Source: Xanthobacteraceae bacterium
Lineage (GTDB): Bacteria; Pseudomonadota; Alphaproteobacteria; Rhizobiales; Xanthobacteraceae
DNA: 19,751 nt
Reading direction: 5' to 3'
NCBI GenBank assembly: GCA_052326245.1
Contig: JBKQQE010000313.1
Location: forward strand, 1 to 19,751
In this document: one piece after another, positions 1 to 17,722 of the stretch
How the letters are laid out: the number at the start of each line of letters is the position of its first letter
Numbering within the stretch: position 1 is the stretch's first letter
The notes under the pieces: model-generated
What the model was told of the DNA's origin: nothing
Database searches by the model: none
Seen by the model: the letters and a program-made list of their open reading frames with translations, nothing else
Program-made: the position numbers and the translations under genes

Positions 1-163
1 GCCTCCAATTCGTCCGGCCGCGGACGGCGGCTCCGGGAAGGTCAACTTCGCATTTCATTTCGAAACCTTAATGCCGCGACCAGCGCGTCGTAATGTGCCG
101 GGCCGCATAGAGGGGGTCATGACGGCGGGCGAATCGCGCGCCAAGTCCCTGGAGAAATGTCCC

Positions 164-1723
164 ATGACCGACCATCTTTCAGACCCCGGCACTTCGCCAT
201 TTCATCGGCTGCTGCGACCGTCATTCTTGTCGGCGCGAAAAATGGCGCTGATGGCGTCCACCGCGATCGTTCTCGGCGCCGCCATCTACGGCTTCAGCCC
301 GTCGCCGGGCAATTTCAATATCGTCGCGAGCGCCGCACACGCCGAGACCGTCAACGGTGCCGCACAACCCGCGGGCTTCGCCGACATCGTCGAGCGGGTG
401 AAACCATCGGTGATCTCGGTGAAGGTCTCGATGAAGCAGAAGGCCGCCGACGTGGCAAACAGGGACGATGACGAGCAGTCCGGCTCGCCGATGGAACACT
501 TCTTTCGCAGATTCGGCGGCCCTGACGGCGTGCCTCAGGGAGGACACGGCCGCGGCGGCGCAATGGTGGGGCAGGGCTCCGGCTTTTTCATCTCGTCCGA
601 TGGCTATGCCGTGACCAACAATCACGTTGTCGACGGTGCCGACAAGGTTGAAGTAACGACCGACGCGGGGAAGGTTTACACAGCGAAAGTGATCGGCACC
701 GACCCGCGCACCGACCTTGCTCTGATCAAGGTCGAGGGCGGGTCCGACTTCCCGGCGGCGAAGCTGTCCGCCGGCAAGGCGCGCGTCGGCGATTGGGTGC
801 TCGCAGTAGGCAACCCGTTTGGCCTTGGCGGAACGGTTACCGCGGGCATCGTTTCGGCGAATGGTCGCGACATCGGCAACGGGCCCTATGACGACTTCAT
901 CCAGATCGACGCGCCGGTCAACAAGGGCAACTCGGGCGGTCCGACTTTCAACACGCAGGGCGAGGTCGTGGGCTTGAACACGGCCATCTATTCGCCGTCT
1001 GGCGGCAGCGTCGGTATCGCGTTCTCGATCCCGGCTCAAACGGTGAAGGAGGTGGTTGCCCAGCTCAAGGACAAGGGGGCCGTCAGCCGGGGCTGGATCG
1101 GCGTGCAAATTCAGCCGGTGACCAGGGATATTGCCGACAGCCTCGGTCTGAAGCAGGCAGAAGGCGCTTTGGTATCTGAACCCCAGGGCGATGGGCCGGC
1201 CGCAAAGGCCGGCGTCGAATCCGGTGATATCATCACCGCGGTAAATGGCCAGTCGATCAAGGATGCCCGGGAACTCGCCCGCATCGTCGGCGGCATGGCG
1301 CCCGGAAGTTCGGTGAAGCTCGACCTGTTGCACAAGGGAAAGGACAAGTCCGTCAGTCTGACGCTTGGTCATCTTCCCGACGCCCAGGAGACGAGAGCCG
1401 ACGCCGATGTGGATCGCAACGGTTTGAAACACGGTCTGGATGTGCCACGGCTTGGCCTGACGGTGGCGCCGGCAGACAAGGTTGCGGGCGCAGGAGAGAA
1501 AGGCGTCGTTGTCACCAACGTCGACCCGAACAGCGCAGCTGCGGAGCGCGGCTTCAAAGAGGGCGACGTGATTTTGGAAGTTGCCGGAAAGACTGTTGCA
1601 AATGCTGGTGAAGTTCGCGCGGCCATCGAAACCGCTCGCACCGACAACAAGACCACCGTCTTGATGCGTGTCCGCTCCGGCGACGCGTCTCACTACGTCG
1701 CCGTGCCGCTCGCAAACGGCTGA
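164..1723 (+). CDS. degP: Periplasmic serine endoprotease of the DegP/HtrA (Do) family, with a protease domain and two PDZ-like regions
   Basis: From ORF 71..1723. Trypsin-like triad motifs are TNNHVV (His), DLALIK (Asp) and GNSGGP (Ser). There is a hydrophobic N-terminal signal/anchor, MALMASTAIVLGAAIYGF. The two C-terminal segments look PDZ-like (GALVSEPQGDGPAAKAGVESGDIITAVNG and GVVVTNVDPNSAAAERGFKEGDVILEVAG). The start is placed at ATG 164 because GGAGAA (151-156) lies 7 nt upstream. ATG 71 remains possible. Confidence 0.9.
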   Translation: MTDHLSDPGTSPFHRLLRPSFLSARKMALMASTAIVLGAAIYGFSPSPGNFNIVASAAHAETVNGAAQPAGFADIVERVKPSVISVKVSMKQKAADVANRDDDEQSGSPMEHFFRRFGGPDGVPQGGHGRGGAMVGQGSGFFISSDGYAVTNNHVVDGADKVEVTTDAGKVYTAKVIGTDPRTDLALIKVEGGSDFPAAKLSAGKARVGDWVLAVGNPFGLGGTVTAGIVSANGRDIGNGPYDDFIQIDAPVNKGNSGGPTFNTQGEVVGLNTAIYSPSGGSVGIAFSIPAQTVKEVVAQLKDKGAVSRGWIGVQIQPVTRDIADSLGLKQAEGALVSEPQGDGPAAKAGVESGDIITAVNGQSIKDARELARIVGGMAPGSSVKLDLLHKGKDKSVSLTLGHLPDAQETRADADVDRNGLKHGLDVPRLGLTVAPADKVAGAGEKGVVVTNVDPNSAAAERGFKEGDVILEVAGKTVANAGEVRAAIETARTDNKTTVLMRVRSGDASHYVAVPLANG

Positions 1724-3822: not shown

Positions 3823-4404
3823 TCACGTCGCCGCCGCTGCCTTCGCGGCACGGCGCCCGCGCCACCGCCAAAAGCCGTAGATGACACCGAAGCCGACGGC
3901 GAGGAATGCGGCCAGAGATGAATACCGAAGATAGAATGGCACTCCGACCGAGAACGGAAACCGTCCGACCGCCTGTTGAACGCCGTCGCCGACGGTAATC
4001 AGTCCGACGTATCTGCCCGGCTGCTGGAACTGATAGTCGAACGAGAAGGTGCCCTTCGGGTAGATCTTCGGCGGAACTTGATAGACCGTTGCGCTGTCGG
4101 GATCGCTCCCGCCGCCATCGTCCAGGACGATCCTGACCGCGACCGGAAGATCGCGCAGCGCATCGTCGATGAAATCCAGGATGACGATGGTCTGCCCCGT
4201 CGCCGGGATGTCCTCGCAGAACTCCTTCCTGTAGCCGTCTCCGGGCTGGTAGCCGGTGAAGTGCATGACATACGGACCGACGCGGAGCTTGCAGTAGTCC
4301 TTTTCCATGGCAAGCCCGCCATGCGCGCTCGCCTCGCCGGCGGCGAACAGGGCGGCCAACAGCCACAGCAATCCAGCCGTGTAGCGCGTGACGTGAAGGT
4401 TCAT
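3823..4404 (-). CDS. Exported protein with a C-terminal membrane anchor, in the pmoD/amoD position; putative copper protein
   Basis: From ORF 3823..4416. The start is placed at ATG 4404 because GGAG ends 7 nt upstream (tatGGAGcgcgcgATG). Signal peptide: MNLHVTRYTAGLLWLLAALFAAGEASA, with predicted cleavage ASA|HGG, which makes His the first mature residue. It has a C-terminal TM helix (LAAFLAVGFGVIYGFW) followed by a basic tail, RWRGRRAAK. A Cys...Met-His cluster (DYCKLRVGPYVMH) sits near the mature N-terminus. The gene begins 28 nt after the PmoB-like stop. Confidence 0.7.
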   Translation of the reverse strand: MNLHVTRYTAGLLWLLAALFAAGEASAHGGLAMEKDYCKLRVGPYVMHFTGYQPGDGYRKEFCEDIPATGQTIVILDFIDDALRDLPVAVRIVLDDGGGSDPDSATVYQVPPKIYPKGTFSFDYQFQQPGRYVGLITVGDGVQQAVGRFPFSVGVPFYLRYSSLAAFLAVGFGVIYGFWRWRGRRAAKAAAAT

Positions 4405-4431
4405 CGCGCGCTCCATATCATTGCGCTGCCG

Positions 4432-5595
4432 TCAGCGAACGAAAGTCGGAACGATGGTTCCGTACACGTTGGCGAGATGCCGCCCGCCGTCGCTGTCGTA
4501 GAAAAACAACAGCCCGCCAAAGCTGCTGTCCGGATCGCGCATCAGGCTGGTCAGGCGCTCGGCCTCCCAGGCCACGTCCGCGGCGGCGAAGTTGATGGTC
4601 CGGGTCTCACCGGGCTGCAGCGGCGTATTGACGTCGACCTGCAGGCCGGTCTTCGGCAGCAGGTCCTTCGGATAGCCCGGGTCGACATTGGCGACGGCGG
4701 CGGGAACCGAATGCTCGATAAAGCGCAAACTGGCGCTGGTGAATTCCCCAAGCTGCAGCGACTTGTTGAATTTGTTGGTGACCTGGATGGTGATCCGCAT
4801 GGCCCGTCCCGGCACGTCGTAGTTGGCCTTGGTCACCTTGAGGTCGACCACCTGCGGCGGGGTCGGCAGCGGCTCGACCCGCACCCGTCCGCCCTGCAGC
4901 GGGATGGTGTTCGGATATCGGTTCTCGGCCCACAGGAAACCGCCGCTGACAAGCACGATGATGCCGGCCAGCCCTGCCGCGGCAACGATCTGGTCCTGGC
5001 GCGTGATCAGCCCGGCCTCGTTGCCCGCCTTCAGCGCCATGTAGCGCGGCAGCAGCAGCGGCCGCCTGATCCACCACAGCAACCACAGCACCGCGATGAC
5101 AAACCACAGCGCGTGCCAGCTGAACACCGTGCCGAGGCCCCAATCCTCAAGGTTGGCGATATAGGTCCCGTCGATCGTCGTCACCGGCTGCCGGAAATCG
5201 GCGAAATTTCCGGTCACGTCGATCCATTCGCCGGGACCCGGCAGCGGACCGGCCTGATGGATATTGAGCATCGGATGGATGTGCCAGTGGCCGGGAATGC
5301 GGCCCTTGACCACGATCTTGAACTCATAGTCGCGGCCGAGCTGCAGGCCGGTCGACTGGATCGCCGGCACGCCGTCGATATAAGACTCGATGCGGGTCAT
5401 CGCGCCGCCGGGCGAGGCAAGCCCCAGGAAAACCGTGTCGGGCTTGGGCAGGATCTCCGGCCAGTCCTCGAAGATGCGGAATTTGCCGGTGATGGTGATC
5501 TCGTCGTTCACCGCCGCCTTGGTGCCGGAAAACTTCACGTCGTACCAGTGCACGGTGCGCATGCGAAGGAACGGCTCCTGGTTGCGCTCGCCGTG
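4432..5595 (-). other. PmoB/AmoB-like mature region of the fusion ORF (residues 302-688)
   Basis: His302, His406 and His408 have exactly the spacing (+104, +106) of His33/His137/His139 in M. capsulatus PmoB as I recall it. His317 corresponds to His48. The position of His72 is Arg341. Confidence 0.85.
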
Positions 5596-6498
5596 GGCCT
5601 GCGTGGGCATGCTGTACAGAATGCTGGTCAGCAACACCGCCAGCCCGAGCACGACCGTTGCCGGTCGCACCACGGCGCCTTTCGCGGCTGGCGCCGATGC
5701 GCCAGCCGATGCGGGCTTGTCCGACAGCCCCATCCATTTGCCGAGCTTGCTCGGCAGGAACGTGGTGCCGGCCAGCAGCTTGCCGATATGCCACCAAAGA
5801 AAGTACATCAGGATGCACATGAACCCCGAGAAGAAGGCGGACACCACCGCGGAATGGCCGCCGAAGGTGCGCAGCGTGCCGCGCTCGATGATGCGCAGAT
5901 ATTCCGGCATGCTGCTGCGCGGATACACGTAGCCGATCATGTCGCCGACCGTGAGCAGCGACCCGATATGCTCGAGCGGCAACCGGTACGCGGCGATCAT
6001 CGGCCAGTTTCCAGGATAGAACAGCAACGCGAACAGCATGCCGCCGAAAATGCCCGCGAAGATGAAATTGCCGCCGAGCAGCAGCACCAGGTCGAGCGCG
6101 ATGGCGCCGGGCAGCATGGTCCCCGGAAAGATCAGCGTGAAGGGAAACCAGGCCCAGATATGGAAGCCGTGCACGCGAACGATCCATTCGCCCAGCAGCA
6201 GCCCGACGCAGCAGAGCGTGGCGCCGATCGGCAGGCGGAAATAGGTCCAGAGAACGTAGTGAACGGCCGCGGGAAAGGTGATCAGCAGCACCGGGGTGAA
6301 GGTCGGCCAGAATTCCCGGTCCTTCCAGTCGTTCCAGAAATCCCAGTCGCCGATCGTCAGTTCGACATGGATGTGGAACGCCGCCGTCAGCACGATGAAG
6401 ATCGCAGCGGCGACCAGAAAATCGAAGGTCCGCGATACCCGCGCGGCCTTGCCTGCCGGCCACACGCCACGCCACGCCGTCTCCGTGATATTTGCCAC
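4432..6498 (-). CDS. pmoA-pmoB: Copper membrane monooxygenase PmoA-like / PmoB-like fusion protein (single 688-aa ORF)
   Basis: GTG start at 6498, with GGGGGGAA ending 4 nt upstream. The N-terminal ~251 aa carry PmoA/AmoA hallmarks: HIHVELTIGDWDFWNDWKDREFW, LLGEW, MLPGAIALD, FYPGNWP, ERGTLRTFGGH. Residues 302-688 carry PmoB/AmoB hallmarks: HGERNQEPFLRMRTVHWYD, GHWHIHPML, two TM helices, and a C-terminal cupredoxin-like segment, VPGRAMRITIQVTN...LGEFTSASLRF. No stop codon separates the two parts. Confidence 0.9.
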   Translation of the reverse strand: MANITETAWRGVWPAGKAARVSRTFDFLVAAAIFIVLTAAFHIHVELTIGDWDFWNDWKDREFWPTFTPVLLITFPAAVHYVLWTYFRLPIGATLCCVGLLLGEWIVRVHGFHIWAWFPFTLIFPGTMLPGAIALDLVLLLGGNFIFAGIFGGMLFALLFYPGNWPMIAAYRLPLEHIGSLLTVGDMIGYVYPRSSMPEYLRIIERGTLRTFGGHSAVVSAFFSGFMCILMYFLWWHIGKLLAGTTFLPSKLGKWMGLSDKPASAGASAPAAKGAVVRPATVVLGLAVLLTSILYSMPTQAHGERNQEPFLRMRTVHWYDVKFSGTKAAVNDEITITGKFRIFEDWPEILPKPDTVFLGLASPGGAMTRIESYIDGVPAIQSTGLQLGRDYEFKIVVKGRIPGHWHIHPMLNIHQAGPLPGPGEWIDVTGNFADFRQPVTTIDGTYIANLEDWGLGTVFSWHALWFVIAVLWLLWWIRRPLLLPRYMALKAGNEAGLITRQDQIVAAAGLAGIIVLVSGGFLWAENRYPNTIPLQGGRVRVEPLPTPPQVVDLKVTKANYDVPGRAMRITIQVTNKFNKSLQLGEFTSASLRFIEHSVPAAVANVDPGYPKDLLPKTGLQVDVNTPLQPGETRTINFAAADVAWEAERLTSLMRDPDSSFGGLLFFYDSDGGRHLANVYGTIVPTFVR
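5596..5745 (-). other. Fusion junction: basic/Ala-rich linker plus the retained PmoB-type signal-peptide-like hydrophobic segment
   Basis: Residues 252-301 read LGKWMGLSDKPASAGASAPAAKGAVVRPATVVLGLAVLLTSILYSMPTQA and are followed immediately by His302. An in-frame ATG at 5731-5733 (Met256) lacks an obvious SD. The junction T-Q-A|H resembles a signal peptidase I site. Confidence 0.7.
5746..6498 (-). other. PmoA/AmoA-like domain of the fusion ORF (residues 1 to about 251)
   Basis: Aligns by eye along its whole length with my recollection of M. capsulatus PmoA. That includes the C-terminal region (HIGKLLAGTTFLPSK here versus FIGRWFSNERFLQST). Confidence 0.8.
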
Positions 6499-6662: not shown

Positions 6663-7490
6663 TCAGATCGTATCGGCCAGGTGCTCGGTTTCTTCCGTGC
6701 CGTAGATCTTCTTCAACAGCTCGACGATGTTCGGCGATACCTGCATCAGCAGGCCGCCCAGCGCCAGCGCCGACCAGCCGAGCACGACAAAGCCCCAATG
6801 CAGCGGGGCGATGAACAGCTCTTCCATCAGCCAGAAGGCATGTCCCCACTCGTTGAAACCGAGATTCGGCAGAATCAGGAACGGTCCGGTCACGCCGATG
6901 ACGAACGGGACGGAGATCGCTCGGGCAAACTGCGGCAGCCGCGTCGAGGCGTACAGATACGAGCCGACCCCGAGGATGATGTAGAGCGGGATGGTCAGGT
7001 AGAACAGCACGATGTGGCTGGGCGTGAAGCTGGTGTCGCGCACCACCACCTGGTGCCAGGACGCGTCCTCTTCGCCGAAGAAGCTGGCGGTGAAGTAGAC
7101 GGCGAACACGTAGCAGAGGATCCATGCGACCAGGGTGAAGTAGCGCTTGAGTTCGGTCCTGGGCTCGATCAGGTCGAGGTGCCGGTCGCGGGTGAGCCAG
7201 AGATACGACCAGACCACGGCCGCGGCGACCGCGAGAACGGTCAGTTCGGTGTACAGCAGCGTCATCCAGTACTTGTCGAACAGTGGATTTGTGGAGTCCA
7301 TGCCCGCGGACCAGGCGAACGCCTGCTGATAGAGCCTGGCGGCCAAGTAGATCATCGCCAAGCCGCCCATCACCATGAGCGTGATGCCGAGGTTCAGATA
7401 CTTTTCCTTGGCCTTGTCCTTGGCCGCATCCCTGGTGGCGCGGTCGGTCGACACAACACCACTCGCTCCCACGTCCAACGCCTGTGTCAT
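6663..7490 (-). CDS. pmoC: Copper membrane monooxygenase subunit C (PmoC/AmoC-like)
   Basis: 275-aa ORF with ATG at 7490 and GGGAGGG 8 nt upstream. Hallmark motifs are EEDASWHQVVVRDTSFTPSHIVLFY (D142/H146/H159) and NEWGHAFWLMEELFIAPLHWGF (N213/H217/H231). There are multiple TM helices. Confidence 0.92.
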   Translation of the reverse strand: MTQALDVGASGVVSTDRATRDAAKDKAKEKYLNLGITLMVMGGLAMIYLAARLYQQAFAWSAGMDSTNPLFDKYWMTLLYTELTVLAVAAAVVWSYLWLTRDRHLDLIEPRTELKRYFTLVAWILCYVFAVYFTASFFGEEDASWHQVVVRDTSFTPSHIVLFYLTIPLYIILGVGSYLYASTRLPQFARAISVPFVIGVTGPFLILPNLGFNEWGHAFWLMEELFIAPLHWGFVVLGWSALALGGLLMQVSPNIVELLKKIYGTEETEHLADTI

Positions 7491-7734: not shown

Positions 7735-8223
7735 TTATTGCGGCGCATCACGCGCGACGGTGACGGTAACCTGTTGCACTGAGTCCGCCACCGTGCGGTG
7801 TTGCGCATCCGCCCAGAAGACTCGCAGCGTGTTCTTGCCGGGCTTGGCCGGCAGTTCGAACACGAACAGATAGCGGTCCTCACCGAGGCGAACGAGCTGG
7901 TCGCGGCTCGGCATCATCGAGACGTCCTGGGCTTCGATGTGAAGATGCGTGCCCGGCACTGGCGCGCCCATCGTCATCTTGCCGAGGTCGGCCGGCGTCT
8001 GGAATACGATCGCCAGGCGAGTGCCTACGGTGGCGCCGTTTTGCGGCATCAGTATTTTCAGGGGCGGCAACTGCGCCGGCGCCTCGCTGGCCATCGGCAT
8101 CGTGTCCCCGCCGGTATGCTGATGGTGCATGTGCTCCATATTGGATTGCGCGACGGCCGGCGACGCGGCGAGCACCGCCAGCACCGGGAGCATCTCGAAA
8201 AGGCAGGTCCGCTTGGCAGTCAT
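7735..8223 (-). CDS. Periplasmic His/Met-rich putative copper-binding protein, possibly DUF4399-like
   Basis: From ORF 7735..8322. The start is placed at ATG 8223 because GGGGAGG lies 6 nt upstream. The longer ORF start lies inside a repeat element. Signal peptide: MTAKRTCLFEMLPVLAVLAASPAVA. The mature N-terminus is QSNMEHMHHQHTGGDTMPM. The later motifs PQNGATV, GTHLHI, PGKNTL and ADAQH resemble the DUF4399 pattern as I recall it, but this is unverified. Confidence 0.75.
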   Translation of the reverse strand: MTAKRTCLFEMLPVLAVLAASPAVAQSNMEHMHHQHTGGDTMPMASEAPAQLPPLKILMPQNGATVGTRLAIVFQTPADLGKMTMGAPVPGTHLHIEAQDVSMMPSRDQLVRLGEDRYLFVFELPAKPGKNTLRVFWADAQHRTVADSVQQVTVTVARDAPQ

Positions 8224-8255
8224 CAACGCCTCCCCTTGTTTATTGTGATTCACGG

Positions 8256-8330
8256 CTAGTGGAGTGGATTTGACATTCGCTTTGAGAGCCCGCGGCGATG
8301 CTGAATCGAAAGTCAAATCCACTCCACTAG
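8256..8330. repeat. 75-bp CTAG-bounded palindromic intergenic element, copy 1 (REP/MITE-like)
   Basis: CTAGTGGAGTGGATTTGAC (8256-8274) is the exact reverse complement of GTCAAATCCACTCCACTAG (8312-8330). About 62 of 75 positions are identical to copy 2. Confidence 0.8.
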
Positions 8331-8372: not shown

Positions 8373-8447
8373 CTAGTGTTTTGAATTTGACATTCGCTTG
8401 GAGAGTTCGCGGCAATACTGAAGCGAATGTCAAATCCACCACACTAG
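8373..8447. repeat. 75-bp CTAG-bounded palindromic intergenic element, copy 2 (REP/MITE-like)
   Basis: CTAGTGTTTTGAATTTGACATTCGCTT pairs with AAGCGAATGTCAAATCCACCACACTAG, with a few mismatches in the outer arm. It has the same length and the same core (ATTTGACATTCGCTT...GAGAG...CGCGGC...CTGAA...GTCAAATCCAC) as copy 1. Its right end overlaps the last codons and the TAG stop (8444-8446) of the copD-fusion gene. Confidence 0.8.
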
Positions 8448-10447
8448 TGGACGTGATTGTCCGGCGCCGGCAATATTTGCGGCTCCGCGTTGAGTTTGTC
8501 CACCTGCTGGAGGAGCCGGTCCGTCGGACTCCAGCCGTTGGGCTCATCGTCGGCAATCCAGCGACCGCGAATGTAGCCGAACCGATCGATCAGGAATTCC
8601 ATGTGGCTTCTCTTCATGCCCAGGCTGCGACCATCGCCACGGTTGACCAGCGTGCGCGACAACAGTCCGTAGCTCTCCCGGATCTCGTCGGCGGCGCCGC
8701 GAACGATCGTCGCGGAGCCGCTCACGCCGGCATCGAGGGCATTGGATATCACCAGGACCACCAGACCGCGGCTTCGCATCCGATCGAGGTCCCGGCTCAG
8801 TTCGCCCATGCGCGCGAGGCTGAGTTGCTGGCCAGGGTCCGGAAACACCAGCAGGACGTTGCTTCGCTCCCGAAAGTCCTTGAGCTCGCGGGCGTTGTCG
8901 TCGTCGCCGTCCAGGTAGAAGTCGGGCGCGCCCAGCCAGGGACGCTCGGAAACGACCGAGGGCGACAGCACGCGGGCCTGAAAGCCCTGGGAAAAAGCCC
9001 GCAGGAAATTGATGATGTCCCATCGGTCCTCATCGCCCAGCACATCCGCGAATCCGGGCATGCCGCTTGGCTGAATTCCGTGCCCCAGCCACCAGTACAT
9101 GTCGCCTGCCGTGTGCAGGGCGGTATGCGGTTCGCTGAGATTCGCCGGCTGCTTCGGCAGCCCCTTCGCCGCAGGCCCATCGCCAAGGCCGCCCGGGCCG
9201 TGGCACGCCGTGCATAGCTGTTCGAAATGCTTCTTTCCTTCGAAGATCGACACCGTCAGGTACGGCACCGTGGACTGGAGATACGTGTCGGGGAAGGCCG
9301 GGACCGTCAGCGACCACAACGCCACTCCCATTCCCGCCATACCTGCGGCAGCGAGCGCTGCCAGCTGTGGCGCCGCCATGCTTCGGCGGCTCCGCACCAC
9401 CCAGGCCGCGGATAGTGCCGCAACCATGGCTCCGCCGACGACCCACAGCGGCGTCGGCCATACGGGCCAGGTCGCGTCGATGGCGAAACGAAACGGCAGC
9501 CACCAATAGGGCTGTTCGTGAGCCGCGGGGTTGGTCTGGGACAATGTGGCGGCGAGGCCGAGGACGATTGTTGCCAGGCCCAGCTCCAGCGCTACCCAGC
9601 GCGCCGCGGCGGCGTATTGTTGCGGTGCGCGCGACACTGTCGTTACAGCCGGCAGGAAGACCCGGCGCATATGGTTGGCGACCAGCAGGATGCCGACCAG
9701 CACCGCGACCTTGCCACAAATCAGCAAGCCGTAGCGTGTCCCCAGCAGATCGCCCTGCGTGCTGATAAATCCGGCGCCGAGCGCCACGCCGGAGACGGCG
9801 ATCACGACCACGCAAACCGTCGCAAGCCGCGAAAAGCGATTGAGCGCCACGGCGGTGTAACAGCGGCGCGCGTCGTTGGCGAACGGGCCGACCGTCAACA
9901 CCAGCCCGATCCAGGCCGGCAAGCCGCCGATCCACGCGCTGACGGCCACCGCATGCATGACCTGGAACGGCATGAGCCAGGCTGCCAGGTCGTCGCCGGC
10001 GGCGTGGCCGGCCAGCGGTCCGGCCGCGGCGACAACGATCGCCAGGATCAGGACCAGCCCCGCGCCCGCGCGCTCCGACCGCGTCCGCTTCGCCTTGGCC
10101 AGAAGGAGCGCGGGCGCGAGCAGGATCAGCACGAGCGAGAGCTTGAGCAGCGCGACACGGCCGTACCGCGTCTGCAACGCAAAGCTCTTCAACCATTCCC
10201 CTTCATCGATCATCCGCGCCAAGGGCAGATCGACGGTCGCGGCGGTCTGAGCGATCAAGCCCGTGACGGTCGCCAGCAAGAAGACCGACACCGCCCAGGG
10301 GAAACTTCTGCTTGCGCGATCGCGCCACGCGCGCAGAACCGGATCCGCTGTCGGGCGACTCAACAGCAGGAACGCCGCGCCGCCGACCAGCCAGGCCAGC
10401 GACAGGTACCCCGCGAGGCGAGCGAGAACCGAGACCAGCTCGGTCAC
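8444..10447 (-). CDS. copD: CopD-family copper membrane protein fused to a c-type cytochrome domain and a Cys-less thioredoxin-fold (AhpC/redoxin-like) domain
   Basis: From ORF 8444..10681. The start is placed at GTG 10447, which overlaps the copC stop as GTGA. The N-terminal ~400 aa are polytopic membrane protein with CopD-like helices (LAGHAAGDD, MHAVAVSAWIGGL). A CxxCH haem motif, CTACH, lies at 9200-9214, with a downstream GMPGF as candidate Met ligand. The C-terminal ~170 aa follow the peroxiredoxin/redoxin pattern (APDFYL..D....L.DFR...VLLVF.P ... VVLVIS ... FLIDRFGYIRGRW), but they contain no cysteine where the active-site Cys would be. Confidence 0.8.
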   Translation of the reverse strand: MTELVSVLARLAGYLSLAWLVGGAAFLLLSRPTADPVLRAWRDRASRSFPWAVSVFLLATVTGLIAQTAATVDLPLARMIDEGEWLKSFALQTRYGRVALLKLSLVLILLAPALLLAKAKRTRSERAGAGLVLILAIVVAAAGPLAGHAAGDDLAAWLMPFQVMHAVAVSAWIGGLPAWIGLVLTVGPFANDARRCYTAVALNRFSRLATVCVVVIAVSGVALGAGFISTQGDLLGTRYGLLICGKVAVLVGILLVANHMRRVFLPAVTTVSRAPQQYAAAARWVALELGLATIVLGLAATLSQTNPAAHEQPYWWLPFRFAIDATWPVWPTPLWVVGGAMVAALSAAWVVRSRRSMAAPQLAALAAAGMAGMGVALWSLTVPAFPDTYLQSTVPYLTVSIFEGKKHFEQLCTACHGPGGLGDGPAAKGLPKQPANLSEPHTALHTAGDMYWWLGHGIQPSGMPGFADVLGDEDRWDIINFLRAFSQGFQARVLSPSVVSERPWLGAPDFYLDGDDDNARELKDFRERSNVLLVFPDPGQQLSLARMGELSRDLDRMRSRGLVVLVISNALDAGVSGSATIVRGAADEIRESYGLLSRTLVNRGDGRSLGMKRSHMEFLIDRFGYIRGRWIADDEPNGWSPTDRLLQQVDKLNAEPQILPAPDNHVH

Positions 10448-10815
10448 GGCGACTTGGCGTCGGTCTTGATGCTGAACTGGTAGCCGTACTCGACCACGTG
10501 TCCGTCCTGCGAGAGAACGCGGTAATGCACGGTAAAGACTCCCGAACCGATGGTCGCGATCGGCGCCTTGACGCATTTCGGGTCGCTGCCCGCCTGCAAC
10601 TTGCCCAGCACGACGGCGGTCCCGTTGGCATCTTCCAGGGTGACCGACGAAAACTTCGCCTCGACCGCCTCGTTGAAGCAAAGATCAAGCGACGGGGGAG
10701 GTTGCGTCAGTACCGCGCGACTCCCGGGCACGGACCTGACCAGCGCTGCATGCGCATGTGCCGAACCCGGCACTGCCAGCGCGATCAGGGCCATGATTGT
10801 CATTTCTCTCTGCAT
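10444..10815 (-). CDS. copC: Periplasmic copper chaperone CopC, with a Cu(II)-type site only
   Basis: From ORF 10444..10827. The start is placed at ATG 10815, and GGGAGGAG lies upstream. Signal peptide ...ALAVPGSAHA|HAALVRSVPG leaves an N-terminal His on the mature protein. The mature protein follows the CopC pattern (SLDLCFNEAV, SSVTLED, FTVHYRVLSQDGHVVEYGYQF), including the D-x-H (DGH) of the Cu(II) site. It contains no Met, so a Met-rich Cu(I) site is absent. Confidence 0.85.
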   Translation of the reverse strand: MQREMTIMALIALAVPGSAHAHAALVRSVPGSRAVLTQPPPSLDLCFNEAVEAKFSSVTLEDANGTAVVLGKLQAGSDPKCVKAPIATIGSGVFTVHYRVLSQDGHVVEYGYQFSIKTDAKSP

Positions 10816-10941: not shown

Positions 10942-11784
10942 TCAGGGGGATCCGGCGGCTTCGAGAAACTGGATGATCCGGCTTCGCAAGGGGGGCCAGT
11001 CCTCGTGCGCCCCGGCTCCCTCGCAGTAGTCGGTCCGCCCACCGGGCGCGCACCCCGCGAACGTGACGCAGCCGTCGTCCTGTGGCAAGGGCGGCTTTGC
11101 GAGATCGCAGGCGTTGCAGCGCGCCCACCAGAGTGCGGCTTGCTTTCCCCAGCCCGGAAAATGCGTGTCCCGTTTGCCGTGCATGACCATCACCGGAATG
11201 GGCTGCGGGCATTGAAAGCCTTCGAGGTCCTTCCCGGAGAAGCCGGCGGCGCTCGGAGCGATCGCCGACACCGTCCCTTTGGTTTGCTTCAGAAGGACGA
11301 GCGCGGTCGACACTGTTCCGCCGTCGGAGTGTCCTGTCGCATAGACCCGGTCTGGATCGATGCACCACGAGCCGGCAACTTCCCCGGGTACCCGCGCAAG
11401 TCCCGTGATGGTTTGCGGCGAGAGGGGTCGGCTGCCGACATAGGCCACAATGAAGCCTCTGCGGGTCGCATCGGTGGTCAGGCGAGTCAGAGACTCGCTC
11501 TGTTCCGCGGAATGTCCCGCCGGTGCGTAGACCATGAGCAGGGGATGCGCATAGGTGGGATCGAGGTTTGCCGGTGCCCTCACATTATAGTGGAAGCCGT
11601 CGCGCGACGAGAGTCCGTTGGTGGCGCCTGCCGCGCCCGGCTTGTTGTCGCAAGAGCCTCGGCGAGCAGCTGCATACGCGAAGCTGGCGACCTGGGTCCC
11701 CTCCTGTGCTTCCGGCGATCCGGAGCATGATGCCGCCACAAGCGCGATGGCGGCGCACATCCCGATACCAACAGAGCGTGTCAC
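10942..11784 (-). CDS. Secreted lipoprotein esterase of the alpha/beta-hydrolase class (PHB-depolymerase/LpqC-like family)
   Basis: GTG start at 11784, with GAGGG 7 nt upstream. Lipobox-like ALVAAS|C. Nucleophile elbow GHSDGG. HGKRD and a C-terminal Cys-rich tail ending in HEDWP resemble COG3509-type esterases by eye. Confidence 0.7.
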   Translation of the reverse strand: MTRSVGIGMCAAIALVAASCSGSPEAQEGTQVASFAYAAARRGSCDNKPGAAGATNGLSSRDGFHYNVRAPANLDPTYAHPLLMVYAPAGHSAEQSESLTRLTTDATRRGFIVAYVGSRPLSPQTITGLARVPGEVAGSWCIDPDRVYATGHSDGGTVSTALVLLKQTKGTVSAIAPSAAGFSGKDLEGFQCPQPIPVMVMHGKRDTHFPGWGKQAALWWARCNACDLAKPPLPQDDGCVTFAGCAPGGRTDYCEGAGAHEDWPPLRSRIIQFLEAAGSP

Positions 11785-14362: not shown

Positions 14363-15355
14363 TCAGCTCTTCGCGCCAAGCGTGGAGGCGCCGTCCCAAC
14401 TGATCGGAAACAGCCGCCAACCGGTTCGCGCCTGCAGACTCCCCCAGAGTCCCCCGGGCGCCAGCAACATCACGATCATCGCCGTCGCTCCCTGGAAAAT
14501 CAGATACAGATCACCGGCGTCGCGGAACAACTCGCGCAGCGCAAAGTAGATCAAGGTGCCGATTACCGGCCCTTCGAGCGTGCCGACGCCGCCGACGATC
14601 ACGATGAACAGGATCTTGACCTGCCAATCGATATCGAAGCCACCCGAGGGATCCACATACAGCACCGACAGGTAGTAAAGGCCACCTGCCAGGCCGCAGA
14701 TCGCCGCGGAGAGTACGAAGGCGGCGAGTCTGTTGCGGGCGACCGCGATACCGACGCTGGCGGCGCCGTGTTCGTTGTCCCGGATCGCCATCAAGGTGAG
14801 CCCGACCCGGGTTCTGAGCAGCGCAAAGATGCCGATCTGGGTCGCTACGGCCAATGCCAGCGCGAGCCAGAACACGCTGTCGGAAAAGCTTGCGGGGTCG
14901 ATGGCCGAGGCGTTGAGCACGACGCCACGCGACGAGCCGGCCCATTCCCATTGCCCGAACAGCAACCTCAGGCTGTCCGCCAGCACCCAAATGCCGATGG
15001 AGAAATAGGCGTCGCGCAGGCGATGCAGCAGCAGCGCCATCACCAGCGCGGCCAGAATACAGACCAGCGCACCGGCGCCGAGGCTGAGATATGGCGATGC
15101 GCCGAGCGTGTTGACCGTCATGAACAGCGCATAGGCGCCGAGGCCGACAAAGGCGTGATGGCCGAACGACAGCAGCCCGGTATATCCGCACAGCAGATTC
15201 CAGCCCTGGGCCATGGCGAAGACCAGCAGCATTTCCTTGGCCAGTTGACGGTCCACCGGCAGAAACAGCGCGCCAGCGACAAGGCCCGCCATCATTGTCG
15301 CGGTCGGCAGAATGGTTCTGGCGTTCACGTTGATTTCCTTCAGAAGACCGTTCAC
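14363..15355 (-). CDS. Branched-chain amino acid/amide-type ABC transporter permease (LivM-like)
   Basis: This is the C-terminal part of ORF 14363..16240. Typical motifs are GYTGLLSFGHHAFVGLGAY, LMAIRDNEHGAASVGI and GGVGTLEGPVIG. The start is placed at GTG 15355, with GGAGG 5 nt upstream and a GTGA overlap with the upstream stop. ATG 15367 is an alternative. Confidence 0.8.
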   Translation of the reverse strand: MNGLLKEINVNARTILPTATMMAGLVAGALFLPVDRQLAKEMLLVFAMAQGWNLLCGYTGLLSFGHHAFVGLGAYALFMTVNTLGASPYLSLGAGALVCILAALVMALLLHRLRDAYFSIGIWVLADSLRLLFGQWEWAGSSRGVVLNASAIDPASFSDSVFWLALALAVATQIGIFALLRTRVGLTLMAIRDNEHGAASVGIAVARNRLAAFVLSAAICGLAGGLYYLSVLYVDPSGGFDIDWQVKILFIVIVGGVGTLEGPVIGTLIYFALRELFRDAGDLYLIFQGATAMIVMLLAPGGLWGSLQARTGWRLFPISWDGASTLGAKS

Positions 15356-16224
15356 CCGCGCCTCCATGCCAGCCGCACGGAAAGATCCATCTGCCTCGCC
15401 AGCAGGACGACGAAGAATGCGAGGTGACCGAACAGCGGCCCGGAATTGGGATTTATTCTCAACCCGACGACCTGCACGACGCCCAGGAACAATCCTCCGA
15501 GGAAGCAGCCCCGCAGCGAGCCCAGCCCGCCAATGATCACGACCTCGAAGGCGATCAAGAGCCGCTCGGCGCCGGAAAACGGCGAGAACGAGCTGCGCAT
15601 CGCCAGCAGCAGACCCGCGAGCGCCGACAACGTGACCGCCAGTCCCATGGCCGCGCTGTAGACCCTGCGCCGGTTGAAGCCGAGCGTTTCGAGAATTTCG
15701 AAATCGTCGGCGGCGGCGCGGAATGCGCGGCCGATGGTGGTGCGCGTCAGCAGAAAATTGGTCGCTACGAACAGTACGACGGCGGCAGCGAAGATCAGCA
15801 GCGGCAGAACGCCGATCGATACGCCGAAAATGTCCACCCCCGCATCCTGCAACGGCCCGACCTCGATCGAGCGAATGTTGGAGCCGTAGATCTTGACGAG
15901 CAGGTTGCGCAGCACGATCGACAGTCCGATGGTGACGACCATCCCTGGAACCGGGTTCGGTCCGAGCACTCTGTTCAGAAGCGCCGCCTGCAGCAGCCAG
16001 CCGAGTGCAAAGGCGGCGATGGCCACGCAGACGACCACTGCCACCAGCGGCAGCGGCGTCAGCGTCAGAAGCGAAACGCCGAGATAGGCCGCCAGCACGA
16101 TGAACTCGCCATGGGCGATGTTGACGACACGCATGATCCCGAAAGCCAGCGCCAGCCCCAGTCCGAACAAACCGTAAAGACCGCCGACCATCAGGCCGTT
16201 GATGAACGCCTCGACGAAGCTCAT
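15352..16224 (-). CDS. Branched-chain amino acid/amide-type ABC transporter permease (LivH-like)
   Basis: MSFVEAFINGLMVGGLYGLFGLGLALAFGIMRVVNIAHGEF is a typical LivH N-terminus, and IIGGLGSLRG is also present. ATG 16224 overlaps the restored livF-like stop as ATGA. Confidence 0.85.
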   Translation of the reverse strand: MSFVEAFINGLMVGGLYGLFGLGLALAFGIMRVVNIAHGEFIVLAAYLGVSLLTLTPLPLVAVVVCVAIAAFALGWLLQAALLNRVLGPNPVPGMVVTIGLSIVLRNLLVKIYGSNIRSIEVGPLQDAGVDIFGVSIGVLPLLIFAAAVVLFVATNFLLTRTTIGRAFRAAADDFEILETLGFNRRRVYSAAMGLAVTLSALAGLLLAMRSSFSPFSGAERLLIAFEVVIIGGLGSLRGCFLGGLFLGVVQVVGLRINPNSGPLFGHLAFFVVLLARQMDLSVRLAWRRG

Positions 16225-16929
16225 GAACCGCGATCTCCAAAATAGGCGTGCTTGATCTCCTCCAGCGTCACGGCCTGGGCGTTCCCGGCCAGCGTGACCC
16301 GCCCTTTCAGCAGGCAGTAGAGCCGGTGCGAGGAATTGCGCGCGCGTACGGTGTCCTGCTCGACGATCACGATCGATATGCCGCTGTCGCGAATGCCGGC
16401 GAAGCAGGAATATGATGTCGTTGATGACCTTGGGCGCCAGCCCGAGAGACAGCTCGTCGCACAACATCAGCCGCGGATTCGTCAGCAGCGCGCGCCCGAT
16501 CGCGACCATCTGCTGCTGGCCGCCGGAAATGTCCGAAGCCAGCTGACGCCGAAGCTCGCGCATGGCCGGAAACAGCGCATAGACCGACTGCAGCGTCCAT
16601 GGTCCGGGCCTGGCCCGCGCCATCCCCATCAGCAGGTTTTCCTCCACGGTGAGCGAGGAAAACAGCCGTCGGCCTTCCGGAACCAGCGCAACCCCGCGCC
16701 GCGCGATCAGGTCGCAGCGCTGGCGGGTGATGTCCTCTCCTGCAAGGATGATGTTGCCGCGCCGCGTCGGGGTCAGGCCGATGATCGCGCGCAGCAAGGT
16801 CGACTTGCCCGCGCCGTTGGCGCCGATGATGGCGATGGTCTCGCCTTCGTCGACATGGAGCGTCACGCCGAAGGTCGCCTGGAGATCGCCGTAGAAGACG
16901 TCAACGTCCTCAAGCGTGAGCAGGTTCAT
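16221..16929 (-). pseudogene. LivF-like ABC ATPase with an apparent 1-nt frameshift near 16391-16400
   Basis: The N-terminal part has Walker A (GANGAGKST), the signature SGGQQQ and Walker B (LMLCDELSLGL). After ...APKVINDIIFLLRR the frame turns into Arg-rich noise. Shifting by one base restores IRDSGISIVIVEQDTVRARNSSHRLYCLLKGRVTLAGNAQAVTLEEIKHAYFGDRGS*, a normal LivF C-terminus ending at 16221-16223. The span is 709 nt, which is 3n+1. Confidence 0.75.
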
Positions 16930-17647
16930 CGACCGAAATCCCCAGATAGACTTCCTGAACGGTGGGAGACGCCATCACCTCGGCGGGAATCCCCTCCATG
17001 AGCTTGGCGCCGAAGTGCAGCACCATGATGCGATCGGCCGCCGCTATCAGGGCGTGGGCGATGTGCTCGATCCAGATGACCGCGTGGTCGCGCTTGAGTG
17101 CCTTGACGATATCGACCAATTGGAAGACTTCGTGCTCGGTGAGGCCGCCGGCGATCTCGTCGAGCAGCAGCAGCTTCGTTCCGACACTCATCGCTTTTGC
17201 CAGCTCGAGGCGTTTGCGGTCGAGCAGCGGCAGGCCGCCGGCGATGAGATGCCGCTTGCCGGCGAGCCCGACGGTTTCCAGCACATCGAGCGCCTGCTGC
17301 CGCGGCGCGGTCCCGCCCTGGGCAGGGCGGTGTACCACGCCGGCCAGCACATTCTCGAAAACGGTCAGGCCGACGAACGGGCGCGGAATCTGAAACGCGC
17401 GGCCGATCCCTCGCCGGGCCCGGCGATACTGCGGCAGGCCGGTGATATCGACGCCCTCGAGCGCGACCTTGCCGGCGTTCGGCTGCACCGATCCGTCGAG
17501 CAGGTTGAAGAGGGTGGTCTTGCCGGCGCCGTTCGGTCCGATAATGCCAAGGCACTCGCCCGTTTCGACCGCAAAACTGACCTGATCGACCACCGTTTTC
17601 ACGCCATAGCGCTTTTCAAGACTCTCGACCGCGAGAATAGGCTTCAT
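16910..17647 (-). CDS. LivG-like ABC transporter ATP-binding protein
   Basis: Walker A GPNGAGKTT, Walker B LLLLDEIAGGL and H-loop WIEH. The start is placed at ATG 17647 (MKPILAVESL), with GAGGGGA upstream. The gene overlaps the livF-like start by 20 nt. Confidence 0.85.
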   Translation of the reverse strand: MKPILAVESLEKRYGVKTVVDQVSFAVETGECLGIIGPNGAGKTTLFNLLDGSVQPNAGKVALEGVDITGLPQYRRARRGIGRAFQIPRPFVGLTVFENVLAGVVHRPAQGGTAPRQQALDVLETVGLAGKRHLIAGGLPLLDRKRLELAKAMSVGTKLLLLDEIAGGLTEHEVFQLVDIVKALKRDHAVIWIEHIAHALIAAADRIMVLHFGAKLMEGIPAEVMASPTVQEVYLGISVDEPAHA

Positions 17648-17675
17648 TCCTGTCCCCTCGGACAAATAGATGAGA

Positions 17676-17700
17676 GGAGGCCGCCGTGTTGGCGGCCTCC
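17676..17700 (-). terminator. Intercistronic stem-loop after the binding-protein gene (attenuator or mRNA stabiliser)
   Basis: Perfect 10-bp stem GGAGGCCGCC (17676-17685) / GGCGGCCTCC (17691-17700) with a 5-nt loop. On the minus strand it is followed by the moderately T-rich tctcatctatttgtcc. It lies between the SBP stop (17723) and the livG-like start (17647). Confidence 0.5.
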
Positions 17701-17722
17701 CTTTCCGTACGCGTGGCGTGCG

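What the first reader, a model, noticed from the sequence alone, without database searches (positions are those of the whole stretch)
4432..6498. PmoA-like and PmoB-like CuMMO subunits encoded as one continuous 688-aa ORF
Seen: there is no stop codon between a complete PmoA/AmoA-like region (residues 1 to about 251; GDWDFWNDWKDREFW, FYPGNWP, ERGTLRTFGGH) and a complete PmoB/AmoB-like region (302-688; HGERNQEPFLRMRTVHWYD, GHWHIHPML, two TM helices, C-terminal cupredoxin-like domain). The PmoA-like part ends where I recall M. capsulatus PmoA ending. Only LGKW then precedes an in-frame Met (5731-5733) that would be the ordinary pmoB start. That internal ATG has no Shine-Dalgarno-like run (aagctcggcaaatggATG), whereas GTG 6498 has GGGGGGAA upstream. 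Established: canonical pmoCAB/amoCAB operons encode three separate polypeptides. I am not aware of a described A-B fusion, so this would be a new architecture for the family, or a very recent loss of the pmoA stop.
Basis: partly seen in the sequence, partly recalled or inferred. Interest (0 to 1): 0.85.

Follow-up and report, generated by a model that had tools for sequence, protein, structure and literature searches.

The report
Natural fused pmoA–pmoB monooxygenase gene
A small clade of uncultured soil Xanthobacteraceae encodes the A and B subunits of a copper membrane monooxygenase as one conserved 688-residue reading frame, in which the old PmoB signal peptide survives as an internal segment that probably lets the cell cut the product back into two subunits.

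Summary
Window 6498..4432 (-) is one 688-codon ORF with a full-length AmoA/PmoA domain (aa 16-248) and a full-length PmoB domain (aa 303-686).

It is neither a sequencing error nor a recent accident. The same fused frame occurs in 13 further loci from other assemblies (12 distinct contigs). These differ at synonymous sites (dS 0.2-0.9), yet both halves are under strong purifying selection (omega 0.05-0.15). The fused sequences form one clade, sister to relatives with separate pmoA and pmoB.

Met256 is not the old pmoB start. In unfused relatives PmoA ends ...KWMGL-stop. In the fusion:
- the stop became Ser259;
- the old spacer and its decayed ribosome-binding site became a variable 14-21 aa Ser/Ala/Pro/Thr linker, always in frame;
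- the old PmoB signal peptide (Val277-Ala301, ...PTQA|HGE) is retained and unusually conserved.

Two members have no start codon between the WMGL motif and the hydrophobic core of the retained signal peptide, so PmoB must be made by read-through.

Best model (inferred): a polyprotein cut by signal peptidase before His302, which frees the N-terminal His that binds CuB. I found no published description. I rate it a new variant of a known kind; substrate unknown.

The parts
6663..7490 (-). pmoC-like gene (275 aa), first gene of the operon. It carries the CuC ligands D142/H146/H159 and the CuD ligands N213/H217/H231.
   Evidence: Pfam AmoC E 2.2e-99 and NCBIfam AmoC_BACT 371 bits. Ligand spacing is identical to the M. 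capsulatus numbering D156/H160/H173 and N227/H231/H245 (the reference numbering is from my own knowledge). Shine-Dalgarno pairing -10.7 kcal/mol.
4432..6498 (-). Fused pmoA-pmoB ORF: 688 aa, 76.3 kDa precursor, GTG start, TGA stop at 4434-4432.
5725..6498 (-). PmoA-homologous part, residues 1-258, ending KWMGL exactly where PmoA ends in unfused sister loci.
   Evidence: Pfam AMO aa 16-248. Unfused PmoA ends ...KKWMGL-TAG/TGA. The model matches solved PmoA chains with target-normalised TM-score (TMt) 0.88-0.94. omega 0.05-0.10.
5731..5733 (-). It is part of the conserved PmoA C-terminal motif WMGL.
   Evidence: pairing to the anti-Shine-Dalgarno sequence -0.9 to -3.1 kcal/mol in all fused loci.
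5671..5724 (-). Linker, residues Ser259-Val276 (SDKPASAGASAPAAKGAV). TCG 5724-5722 replaces the former pmoA stop. The rest is the former intergenic spacer with a decayed ribosome-binding site.
   Evidence: DNA alignment with unfused L003/L005/L007. Length is 14, 15, 16, 18 or 21 aa in different members, always in frame. omega is about 0.5-1.5. AlphaFold2 predicts no regular structure across the linker, with pLDDT below 50 over residues 264-279.
5596..5670 (-). Retained PmoB signal peptide, Val277-Ala301: n-region VRP, h-region ATVVLGLAVLLTSILY, c-region SMPTQA. The predicted signal-peptidase site is Ala301|His302.
   Evidence: It aligns with the signal peptides of unfused PmoB. The -3/-1 residues are T/S/A and A in every member. 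Identity among fused members is 77-100%, against 27-55% for the free signal peptides of the sister clade. Predicted helix at 280-293.
4435..5595 (-). Mature PmoB part, His302-Arg688 (43.0 kDa): N-terminal cupredoxin domain, two TM helices (455-477, 500-527), C-terminal cupredoxin domain. CuB ligands are H302, H406 and H408.
   Evidence: Pfam Monooxygenase_B 1-380/380. Mature PmoB/AmoB chains in the PDB start at query residue 302. Matches solved PmoB/AmoB chains with TMt 0.90-0.94. H302-to-H406 spacing is 104, as for H33 to H137.
3823..4416 (-). pmoD homolog (197 aa; signal peptide, periplasmic domain, C-terminal TM helix), last gene of the cluster.
   Evidence: phmmer hit to PDB 6cpd_A 'PmoD', E 3.1e-21. 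Conserved after pmoB in both fused and unfused relatives.

Best explanation
This is a genuine, selectively maintained fusion of the adjacent pmoA and pmoB genes of a copper membrane monooxygenase (operon pmoC-pmoAB-pmoD). It occurs in a genus-level clade of uncultured Xanthobacteraceae/Bradyrhizobium-like bacteria. It arose once. The pmoA stop after ...KWMGL was lost (TAG or TGA to TCG), and indels in the 35-56 nt spacer put pmoB in frame. The spacer, with its now decayed ribosome-binding site, became a flexible cytoplasmic Ser/Ala/Pro/Thr linker.

Proposed mechanism (inferred, not shown):
1. The ribosome makes one 76-kDa precursor.
2. The six membrane crossings of PmoA insert with both termini in the cytoplasm.
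3. The retained PmoB signal peptide (Val277-Ala301) then acts as an internal export signal (N-in, C-out) and carries the PmoB cupredoxin domain to the periplasm.
4. Signal peptidase I cuts at PTQA|HGE.

This would give mature PmoB (43 kDa), whose free N-terminal His302 amine completes the CuB site with H406 and H408. It would also give a 33-kDa PmoA that keeps the signal peptide as an extra C-terminal membrane helix. That retention would explain why the segment is now far more conserved than a disposable signal peptide. The outcome is obligatory 1:1 co-synthesis and co-localisation of A and B. The substrate is unknown; the nearest relatives are uncharacterised or short-chain hydrocarbon enzymes, not methanotroph or nitrifier enzymes.
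For: SHOWN:
- Single ORF with two full-length domains. Both halves match solved PmoA and PmoB chains with TMt 0.88-0.94.
- The fused frame is present in 13 further loci (12 distinct contigs): L001, L002 (=L030), L008, L009, L010 and L023-L029, from JGI metagenomes and from NCBI/ENA MAGs. There are further cluster members of 657-725 aa.
- Among the six loci analysed (window, L001, L002, L008-L010), dS is 0.2-0.9 with omega 0.05-0.10 for A and 0.06-0.19 for B.
- The fused sequences are monophyletic and sister to the unfused P0003-P0007/L003/L007 in a neighbour-joining tree.
- Junction homology: unfused PmoA ends KWMGL-stop, followed by a 35-56 nt spacer with a strong Shine-Dalgarno sequence (-6.4 to -12 kcal/mol). 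In the fusion the stop is TCG and the Shine-Dalgarno sequence has decayed to +0.1 to -6.2 kcal/mol.
- Five linker length classes (14, 15, 16, 18, 21 aa) are all in frame, implying at least four indels that are all multiples of 3 nt; chance is about (1/3)^4.
- L025 (GCG) and L027 (GTA) have no in-frame ATG/GTG/TTG anywhere in the linker or n-region, so PmoB there can only be made by read-through.
- The signal-peptide segment is 77-86% identical between fused pairs at 85-86% mature-B identity. It is 32-55% identical between unfused pairs at 85-87%.
- The -3/-1 rule and His at +1 hold in all variants: TQA, TLA, SQA, THA, AQA | HGE.
- Mature PDB PmoB/AmoB chains begin at the residue aligned to His302.
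- CuB uses the amino group of the N-terminal His (PMC11725843).
- All CuB, CuC and CuD ligands are conserved.
- A C-terminal 3xFLAG extension on AmoA is tolerated in active AMO (PMC13058606).

INFERRED: the cytoplasmic location of the PmoA C-terminus. This rests on six predicted crossings, the K-rich tail, and the fact that the fusion is viable at all.

PRECEDENT (my own knowledge, not retrieved here): the Bradyrhizobium japonicum fbcH gene product is a cytochrome b-c1 polyprotein cut at an internal signal peptide (Thony-Meyer et al. 1989 Cell; 1991 PNAS).
Against: There is no protein-level evidence. Cleavage is predicted only from the n/h/c layout and the -3/-1 rule, and no signal-peptide predictor was available. 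Thr at -3 is a less common choice than Ala. AlphaFold2 gives low confidence for residues 264-307, so nothing structural supports where the extra helix sits. The high conservation of the signal-peptide segment is equally compatible with an uncleaved membrane tether. I could not retrieve a paper that states the side of the membrane on which the PmoA C-terminus lies. Most members keep GTG at Val277, the former start, so minor internal initiation in those lineages is not excluded.
Confidence: 0.62

Rival explanations
1. Uncleaved single-chain A-B subunit. The former signal peptide serves as a permanent transmembrane tether (signal anchor). The enzyme works as a two-polypeptide complex (PmoC plus PmoAB), with a CuB site that lacks the free N-terminal amine.
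For: The signal-peptide-derived segment is much more conserved than free signal peptides in the sister clade, as expected for a structural helix. There is no direct evidence of cleavage. CuB is not regarded as the active site, and its ligands are absent in Verrucomicrobia (PMC11725843), so an altered CuB might be tolerated.
Against: The c-region keeps small residues at -3 and -1 and a Pro at -4 in all variants, with His invariably at +1. The hydrophobic core is only about 14-16 residues (helix 280-293), which is typical of cleavable signals rather than anchors. H302/H406/H408 are strictly conserved, which makes sense only if the three-His-plus-amine CuB site is kept.
Confidence: 0.25
2. The fused frame is incidental. 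PmoB is still made mainly as a separate protein by internal initiation, at Met256 as the reader proposed or at Val277 (GTG, the former start). The A-B read-through product would be a by-product.
For: GTG is kept at Val277 in 10 of 13 fused loci. Weak Shine-Dalgarno-like remnants exist in some: window -4.2, L001 -6.2, L023 -5.8 kcal/mol. Many alphaproteobacterial genes initiate without a strong Shine-Dalgarno sequence (my own knowledge).
Against: Met256 is part of PmoA in unfused relatives and has no Shine-Dalgarno pairing. L025 and L027 have no start codon in the linker or n-region, and L008-L010 have essentially no Shine-Dalgarno pairing (+0.1 to -1.0), yet their PmoB is under purifying selection. 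All the indels implied by the five linker length classes kept the frame, which separate translation would not require.
Confidence: 0.07
3. Artefact or decay: a base-call or assembly error, or a very recent stop-codon loss in a gene on its way to becoming a pseudogene.
For: Junction-spanning ORFs that do look like frameshift artefacts exist elsewhere in the family: P0253/L080 versus the unfused L041/L070, and P0274.
Against: Twelve other distinct contigs from different projects and assemblers share the fused frame while differing at many synonymous sites. Both halves have omega about 0.1. The identical protein occurs on 4 contigs under 2 NCBI accessions.
Confidence: 0.01

Closest known systems
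Canonical copper membrane monooxygenase operons (pmoCAB of methanotrophs, amoCAB of nitrifiers, hydrocarbon xmoCAB/emoCAB/bmoCAB), as reviewed in PMC6215863
   Same: Same three subunit families, in the same C-A-B gene order and followed by pmoD. All CuB, CuC and CuD ligands are present. Predicted folds superpose on solved PmoA and PmoB (TMt 0.88-0.94). PmoB has a Sec-type signal peptide ending just before the N-terminal His.
   Different: A and B share one reading frame with no stop, no spacer and no functional ribosome-binding site between them, so the PmoB signal peptide is internal. Best identity to solved pMMO/AMO chains is only 41-52%. The nearest unfused relatives (74-82% identity) are uncharacterised Xanthobacteraceae sequences, and the substrate is unknown.
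FbcH cytochrome b-c1 polyprotein of Bradyrhizobium japonicum (Thony-Meyer et al. 1989, 1991; my own knowledge, papers not retrievable here)
   Same: Two adjacent membrane-complex subunits are encoded as one ORF. The upstream partner is a polytopic membrane protein ending in the cytoplasm. The downstream partner is periplasmic and is preceded by an internal signal peptide. The host belongs to the same bacterial family.
   Different: An unrelated enzyme. Processing of FbcH was shown experimentally, whereas here it is only predicted.
Accessory single transmembrane helices bound to PmoC/AmoC in native pMMO and AMO structures (PMC11725843)
   Same: They show that CuMMO complexes accommodate an extra single-pass helix. 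The AMO helix is oriented N-in/C-out, as the retained signal peptide would be.
   Different: Those helices are separate small ORF products or unidentified peptides. There is no sequence relationship to residues 277-301 and no evidence that the same groove is used.

Membership tests
CuMMO subunit A (Pfam PF02461 AMO; NCBIfam NF041557 AmoA_BACT) | Full-length profile match above the curated cut-off | tested here: met
   PF02461 320.9 bits against cut-off 27.5, profile 5-237/238. NF041557 331.9 bits against 290.
CuMMO subunit A | PmoA fold | tested here: met
   AlphaFold2 model (pLDDT 85.4) matches PmoA chains 7s4h_B, 9cl1_Ca and 3rgb_B with TMt 0.91-0.94.
CuMMO subunit B (Pfam PF04744; NCBIfam NF041640 AmoB_BACT, TIGR03079) | Full-length profile match above the curated cut-off | tested here: met
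   PF04744 478.3 bits, profile 1-380/380. NF041640 541.3 bits against 336. TIGR03079 464.8 bits against 394.9.
CuMMO subunit B | CuB ligands: N-terminal His plus the HxH motif | tested here: met
   H302, H406 and H408 have the same spacing (104, 2) as H33/H137/H139 and are invariant in all fused members.
CuMMO subunit B | Free alpha-amino group on the N-terminal His, produced by signal-peptide removal | not testable with these tools
   The sequence has n/h/c regions and the site PTQA|H. Cleavage itself needs protein data.
CuMMO holoenzyme operon (xmoCAB) | PmoC partner with CuC and CuD ligands encoded alongside | tested here: met
   AmoC 332 bits, with D142/H146/H159 and N213/H217/H231.
CuMMO holoenzyme operon (xmoCAB) | Three separate structural genes and polypeptides | tested here: not met
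   A and B share one ORF here and in 13 related loci. This is the point of departure from the family norm.
pMMO or AMO in the strict sense (methane or ammonia as the physiological substrate) | Membership of the methanotroph or nitrifier clades, or demonstrated activity | tested here: inconclusive
   TIGR03080 (CH4/NH3 monooxygenase A) scores 279.9, below its cut-off of 318.15, while AmoA_BACT passes. The nearest named relatives are uncharacterised Bradyrhizobium and Xanthobacteraceae proteins and ethane/ethylene-oxidiser proteins at 49-57% identity. Activity is not testable here.
Polyproteins split at an internal signal peptide (FbcH type) | One ORF encoding two subunits that are separate genes in relatives | tested here: met
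Polyproteins split at an internal signal peptide (FbcH type) | Internal signal peptide immediately preceding the mature N-terminus of the downstream subunit | tested here: met
   Residues 277-301 are homologous to the free PmoB signal peptides and end at the residue where solved mature chains begin.
Polyproteins split at an internal signal peptide (FbcH type) | Demonstrated proteolytic processing into two polypeptides | not testable with these tools
   Needs immunoblot, mass spectrometry or N-terminal sequencing.

The most novel reading that the evidence does not exclude
This would be the first copper membrane monooxygenase made as an obligate 'one gene, two subunits' polyprotein. Signal peptidase releases PmoB, and the signal peptide, instead of being degraded, stays on PmoA as a new sequence-constrained transmembrane helix that has become a structural part of the complex. 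That helix could be a built-in counterpart of the loose accessory helices seen on PmoC/AmoC. If so, the clade offers a natural template for stoichiometric co-expression of CuMMO subunits, which has been a persistent obstacle to recombinant pMMO and AMO.
Probability: 0.35. Interest if true: 0.75.

Novelty: new variant of a known kind. Interest (0 to 1): 0.62.

Why it matters
CuMMOs (pMMO, AMO and hydrocarbon monooxygenases) are central to the methane and nitrogen cycles. They are described as three-gene, three-polypeptide enzymes, and reviews stress how hard they are to express and reconstitute (PMC13058606).

A fusion kept by selection shows four things:
- The PmoA C-terminus and the PmoB signal peptide are topologically compatible, which implies that the PmoA C-terminus is cytoplasmic.
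- PmoA tolerates, and perhaps uses, an extra C-terminal helix.
- Equimolar co-translational delivery of A and B is workable in nature.
- Public annotation hides the architecture, because PGAP and IMG name the 688-aa product simply 'AmoB' or 'subunit B'. pmoA/amoA gene surveys that rely on gene names or product length can therefore miscount this clade.

The clade also supplies a testable natural case for whether CuB needs the free N-terminal amine.

Tried and rejected
1. Met256 as the pmoB start. Rejected: it lies within the PmoA C-terminal motif KWMGL of unfused relatives.
2. Sequencing error or recent stop loss. Rejected on comparative grounds.
3. Other A-B fusions in the family. An exhaustive HMMER search of 1.84 billion cluster representatives listed no other intact A-B fusion among the 150 best hits. 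P0253/L080 and P0274 span the junction, but they carry garbled, frameshift-like stretches and have unfused near-identical relatives (L041, L070), so I treat them as artefacts or pseudogenes.
4. Published descriptions of an A-B fusion. Five searches found none. The library omits most subscription journals, so this is absence in the searchable set only.
5. An explicit statement of PmoA C-terminus topology. The papers I wanted (Koo 2022, Tucci 2024, Koo ACS Synth Biol 2022) are not held, and the ones I could read do not state it. The topology therefore remains inferred.
6. The FbcH papers. Not held or not found, so I cite them from memory only.
7. The A-only homolog search did not return the fused clusters, probably because of its word-based prefilter, so it adds nothing on how common the fusion is.
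8. dN/dS of the linker. At 14-18 codons it is too short to be more than indicative.
Full report

Yes. On the minus strand, GTG 6498 to TGA 4432 is a single 688-codon ORF.
- Pfam places a complete AMO (PmoA/AmoA) domain at residues 16-248 (profile 5-237 of 238, E 8.6e-96).
- Pfam places a complete Monooxygenase_B domain at residues 303-686 (profile 1-380 of 380, E 2.6e-143).
- NCBIfam AmoA_BACT and AmoB_BACT both exceed their curated cut-offs.
- An AlphaFold2 model (pLDDT 85.4, pTM 0.84) superposes on solved PmoB/AmoB chains (target-normalised TM-score, TMt, 0.90-0.94) and on PmoA chains (0.88-0.94). No PDB chain covers both halves.
- Upstream lies a pmoC-like gene (7490..6663; AmoC E 2.2e-99). 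Downstream lies a PmoD homolog (4416..3823; 6cpd_A E 3.1e-21).
- All copper ligands are present with canonical spacing: CuB H302/H406/H408; CuC D142/H146/H159 and CuD N213/H217/H231 in PmoC.

**2. Is it an error or a recent accident?**

No.
- The identical protein is on record under two NCBI accessions ('MAG: Xanthobacteraceae bacterium', named only 'AmoB') and on four contigs.
- The same fused frame is present in L001 and L002 (JGI metagenomes), in L008/L009 (Chersky MAGs), in L010 (an MFD MAG, on a 230-kb contig) and in seven further full-length metagenome loci, L023-L029. That is 13 further loci on 12 distinct contigs. Additional 657-725-aa members sit in the 90% identity clusters.
- These are not copies of one sequence. 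Among the six loci analysed (window, L001, L002, L008-L010), pairwise dS reaches 0.9, with dN/dS of 0.05-0.10 in the A part and 0.06-0.19 in the B part.
- In a neighbour-joining tree of mature PmoB, the fused sequences form one clade. It is sister to a clade with separate pmoA and pmoB: P0003-P0007, L003-L007, including another Xanthobacteraceae MAG.
- The fusion therefore happened once, before this clade diversified, and both halves have stayed functional since.

**3. What the junction really is**

The closest unfused loci end PmoA with ...NK[FI]KKWMGL followed by TAG or TGA. They then have a 35-56 nt spacer with a strong ribosome-binding site (pairing -6.4 to -12 kcal/mol), and then the pmoB start and a 28-35-aa signal peptide ending ...A-x-A|HGERNQ.

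In the window the same KWMGL (residues 254-258) is followed by TCG (Ser259) instead of the stop.

DNA alignment shows three correspondences:
- L003 'CTG TAG' aligns with fused 'CTG TCG'.
- The old Shine-Dalgarno sequence (AGGAGGGGTGGG) aligns with the middle of the linker.
- The old start 'ATG CGC AAG' aligns with 'GTG CGA CCG' (Val277-Arg-Pro).

The fusion thus has four parts:
- PmoA, residues 1-258.
- A linker derived from the spacer, residues 259-276.
- The old PmoB signal peptide, residues 277-301: n-region VRP, h-region ATVVLGLAVLLTSILY, c-region SMPTQA.
- Mature PmoB from His302.

Solved native PmoB/AmoB chains begin exactly at the residue aligned to His302.

**4. Is the fused frame itself under selection?**

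- The linker is the most variable stretch (omega about 0.5-1.5) and is rich in Ser, Ala, Pro and Thr. AlphaFold2 predicts no regular structure across it, with pLDDT below 50 over residues 264-279.
- The linker occurs in five length classes (14, 15, 16, 18 and 21 aa), and every one is in frame. That implies at least four indels that were all multiples of three. The chance of that is roughly 1 in 80 if the frame did not matter.
- The former ribosome-binding site has decayed to between +0.1 and -6.2 kcal/mol.
- In two members the former start codon is no longer a start (L025 GCG, L027 GTA). Those two have no in-frame ATG, GTG or TTG anywhere between WMGL and the hydrophobic core. Their PmoB, which is conserved like the others, can only be translated as part of the fusion.

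**5. How it most likely works (inferred)**

CuB is bound by three histidines plus the amino group of the N-terminal histidine of PmoB (PMC11725843). That amine exists only after the signal peptide is removed.

In every fused variant the residues before His302 obey the signal-peptidase -3/-1 rule: TQA, TLA, SQA, THA or AQA. A Pro sits at -4, and the hydrophobic core is only about 14-16 residues long. These features fit a cleavable signal rather than a permanent anchor.

For the internal signal to export PmoB, the PmoA C-terminus must be cytoplasmic. Three points support this:
- The model shows seven helices in PmoA but six membrane crossings. Helices 129-142, 145-158 and 160-172 are too short to cross individually. 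The hairpin at 174-183 lies on the side opposite the termini.
- The C-terminal tail and linker carry six Lys/Arg residues.
- The fusion is viable at all.

I could not retrieve a paper that states the topology outright, so it remains an inference.

The model is therefore a polyprotein. A 76-kDa precursor would be cut by signal peptidase I into a 33-kDa PmoA (residues 1-301) and a 43-kDa PmoB (residues 302-688).

A known precedent, in the same bacterial family, is the Bradyrhizobium japonicum FbcH cytochrome b-c1 polyprotein, which is cleaved at an internal signal peptide. I cite this from my own knowledge; the papers were not retrievable.

**6. An unexpected feature**

At matched divergence of the mature protein (85-87% identity), the signal-peptide segment is 77-86% identical among fused members. 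Among the free signal peptides of the unfused sister clade it is only 32-55% identical. After fusion this segment has become much more constrained.

There are two readings. One is that, after cleavage, the segment stays attached to PmoA and has become a structural seventh crossing. The other is that it is never cleaved and tethers A to B. I favour the first, because of the conserved cleavage motif and the CuB ligands, but the second keeps about a quarter of the probability. Native AMO and pMMO are known to bind extra single-pass helices on PmoC/AmoC, so an added helix is structurally plausible. Whether it uses that site is speculation.

**7. Comparison with what is known**

The three-separate-genes feature that reviews give for xmoCAB (PMC6215863) is not met here. 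Every other membership test I could run for the CuMMO A, B and C subunits and for PmoD was met.

I would not call the enzyme pMMO or AMO:
- TIGR03080 scores below its cut-off.
- The nearest named relatives are uncharacterised Bradyrhizobium/Xanthobacteraceae proteins and ethane or ethylene oxidiser enzymes at about 50-57% identity.
- The substrate is unknown.

An exhaustive profile search of 1.84 billion cluster representatives listed no other intact A-B fusion among its 150 best hits. Two junction-spanning hits look like frameshift artefacts, and one C-A fusion (P0319) was seen but not followed up. Five literature searches found no description of an A-B fusion. That library lacks most subscription journals.

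**8. Verdict**

The architecture is new for the family, but it is not recent, and the junction anatomy was misread.
- Novelty: a new variant of a known kind.
- Interest is moderate to high (0.62). The finding is a clean, evolutionarily validated natural fusion in an enzyme family of wide importance. It bears directly on subunit topology, on CuB maturation and on recombinant expression. Against that, fusion of adjacent subunit genes is a common kind of event, the hosts are uncultured, and the processing step is still unproven.

Noticed in passing
window 3823-4416 (-): The 197-aa ORF directly after the fusion is a PmoD homolog (PDB 6cpd_A, E 3.1e-21), although neither Pfam nor NCBIfam recognises it. 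It is conserved after pmoB in both fused and unfused relatives (46-82% identity).
   Followed up: partly
window 7735-8322 (-): An ORF just upstream of pmoC, probably starting at Met34, has a signal peptide and a Met/His-rich motif (MEHMHHQH...MPM). It is conserved only in the fused-clade loci (L001, L008-L010) and matches no family. It is a candidate periplasmic copper-binding protein.
   Followed up: partly
window 8444-10681 (-) and 10942-11784 (-): The CopD-cytochrome c gene (745 aa) and a 280-aa esterase-like gene lie upstream of pmoC here. Their homologs lie downstream of pmoB/pmoD in the unfused sister clade (L003, L005, L007). The accessory genes were therefore rearranged in the lineage that carries the fusion.
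   Followed up: partly
P0319, P0270, P0312, P0338, P0347 (representative library): Other unusual architectures exist in the family. P0319 is a 514-aa AmoC+AmoA single ORF (a C-A fusion). P0270 is a 985-aa protein with a large unrelated N-terminal region followed by an AmoA domain. P0312, P0338 and P0347 have PmoB-like cupredoxin pairs without TM helices or His ligands, placed behind unrelated N-terminal domains.
   Followed up: no
L002 (= L030) about 826-1359; P0002 versus P0404: P0002 lacks 42 residues of the N-terminal cupredoxin domain (between EILPK and LVVKGR) that are present in its 90% identity cluster mate P0404. This is either an assembly artefact or a deletion variant.
   Followed up: no
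L080 (P0253), P0274; compare L041 and L070: These junction-spanning A-B ORFs come from distant CuMMO lineages. They contain garbled, frameshift-like stretches and have near-identical unfused relatives. They are examples of artefactual or pseudogene 'fusions' and contrast with the clean conserved one studied here.
   Followed up: partly
L008 versus L009: A contig binned as 'Candidatus Sulfotelmatobacter' (Acidobacteriota) is nearly identical to one binned as Bradyrhizobium sp. from the same Chersky study: dS is 0-0.014 and the fused proteins differ at one residue. This is probably a binning error in the former.
   Followed up: partly
window 71-1723 (+) and 14363-19060 (-): The flanking genes are ordinary: a DegP/HtrA-type protease with two PDZ domains, and a branched-chain amino-acid ABC transporter set (binding protein, two ATPases, two permeases). 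One ATPase is fused to a permease in the 525-aa ORF at 15352-16929.
   Followed up: no
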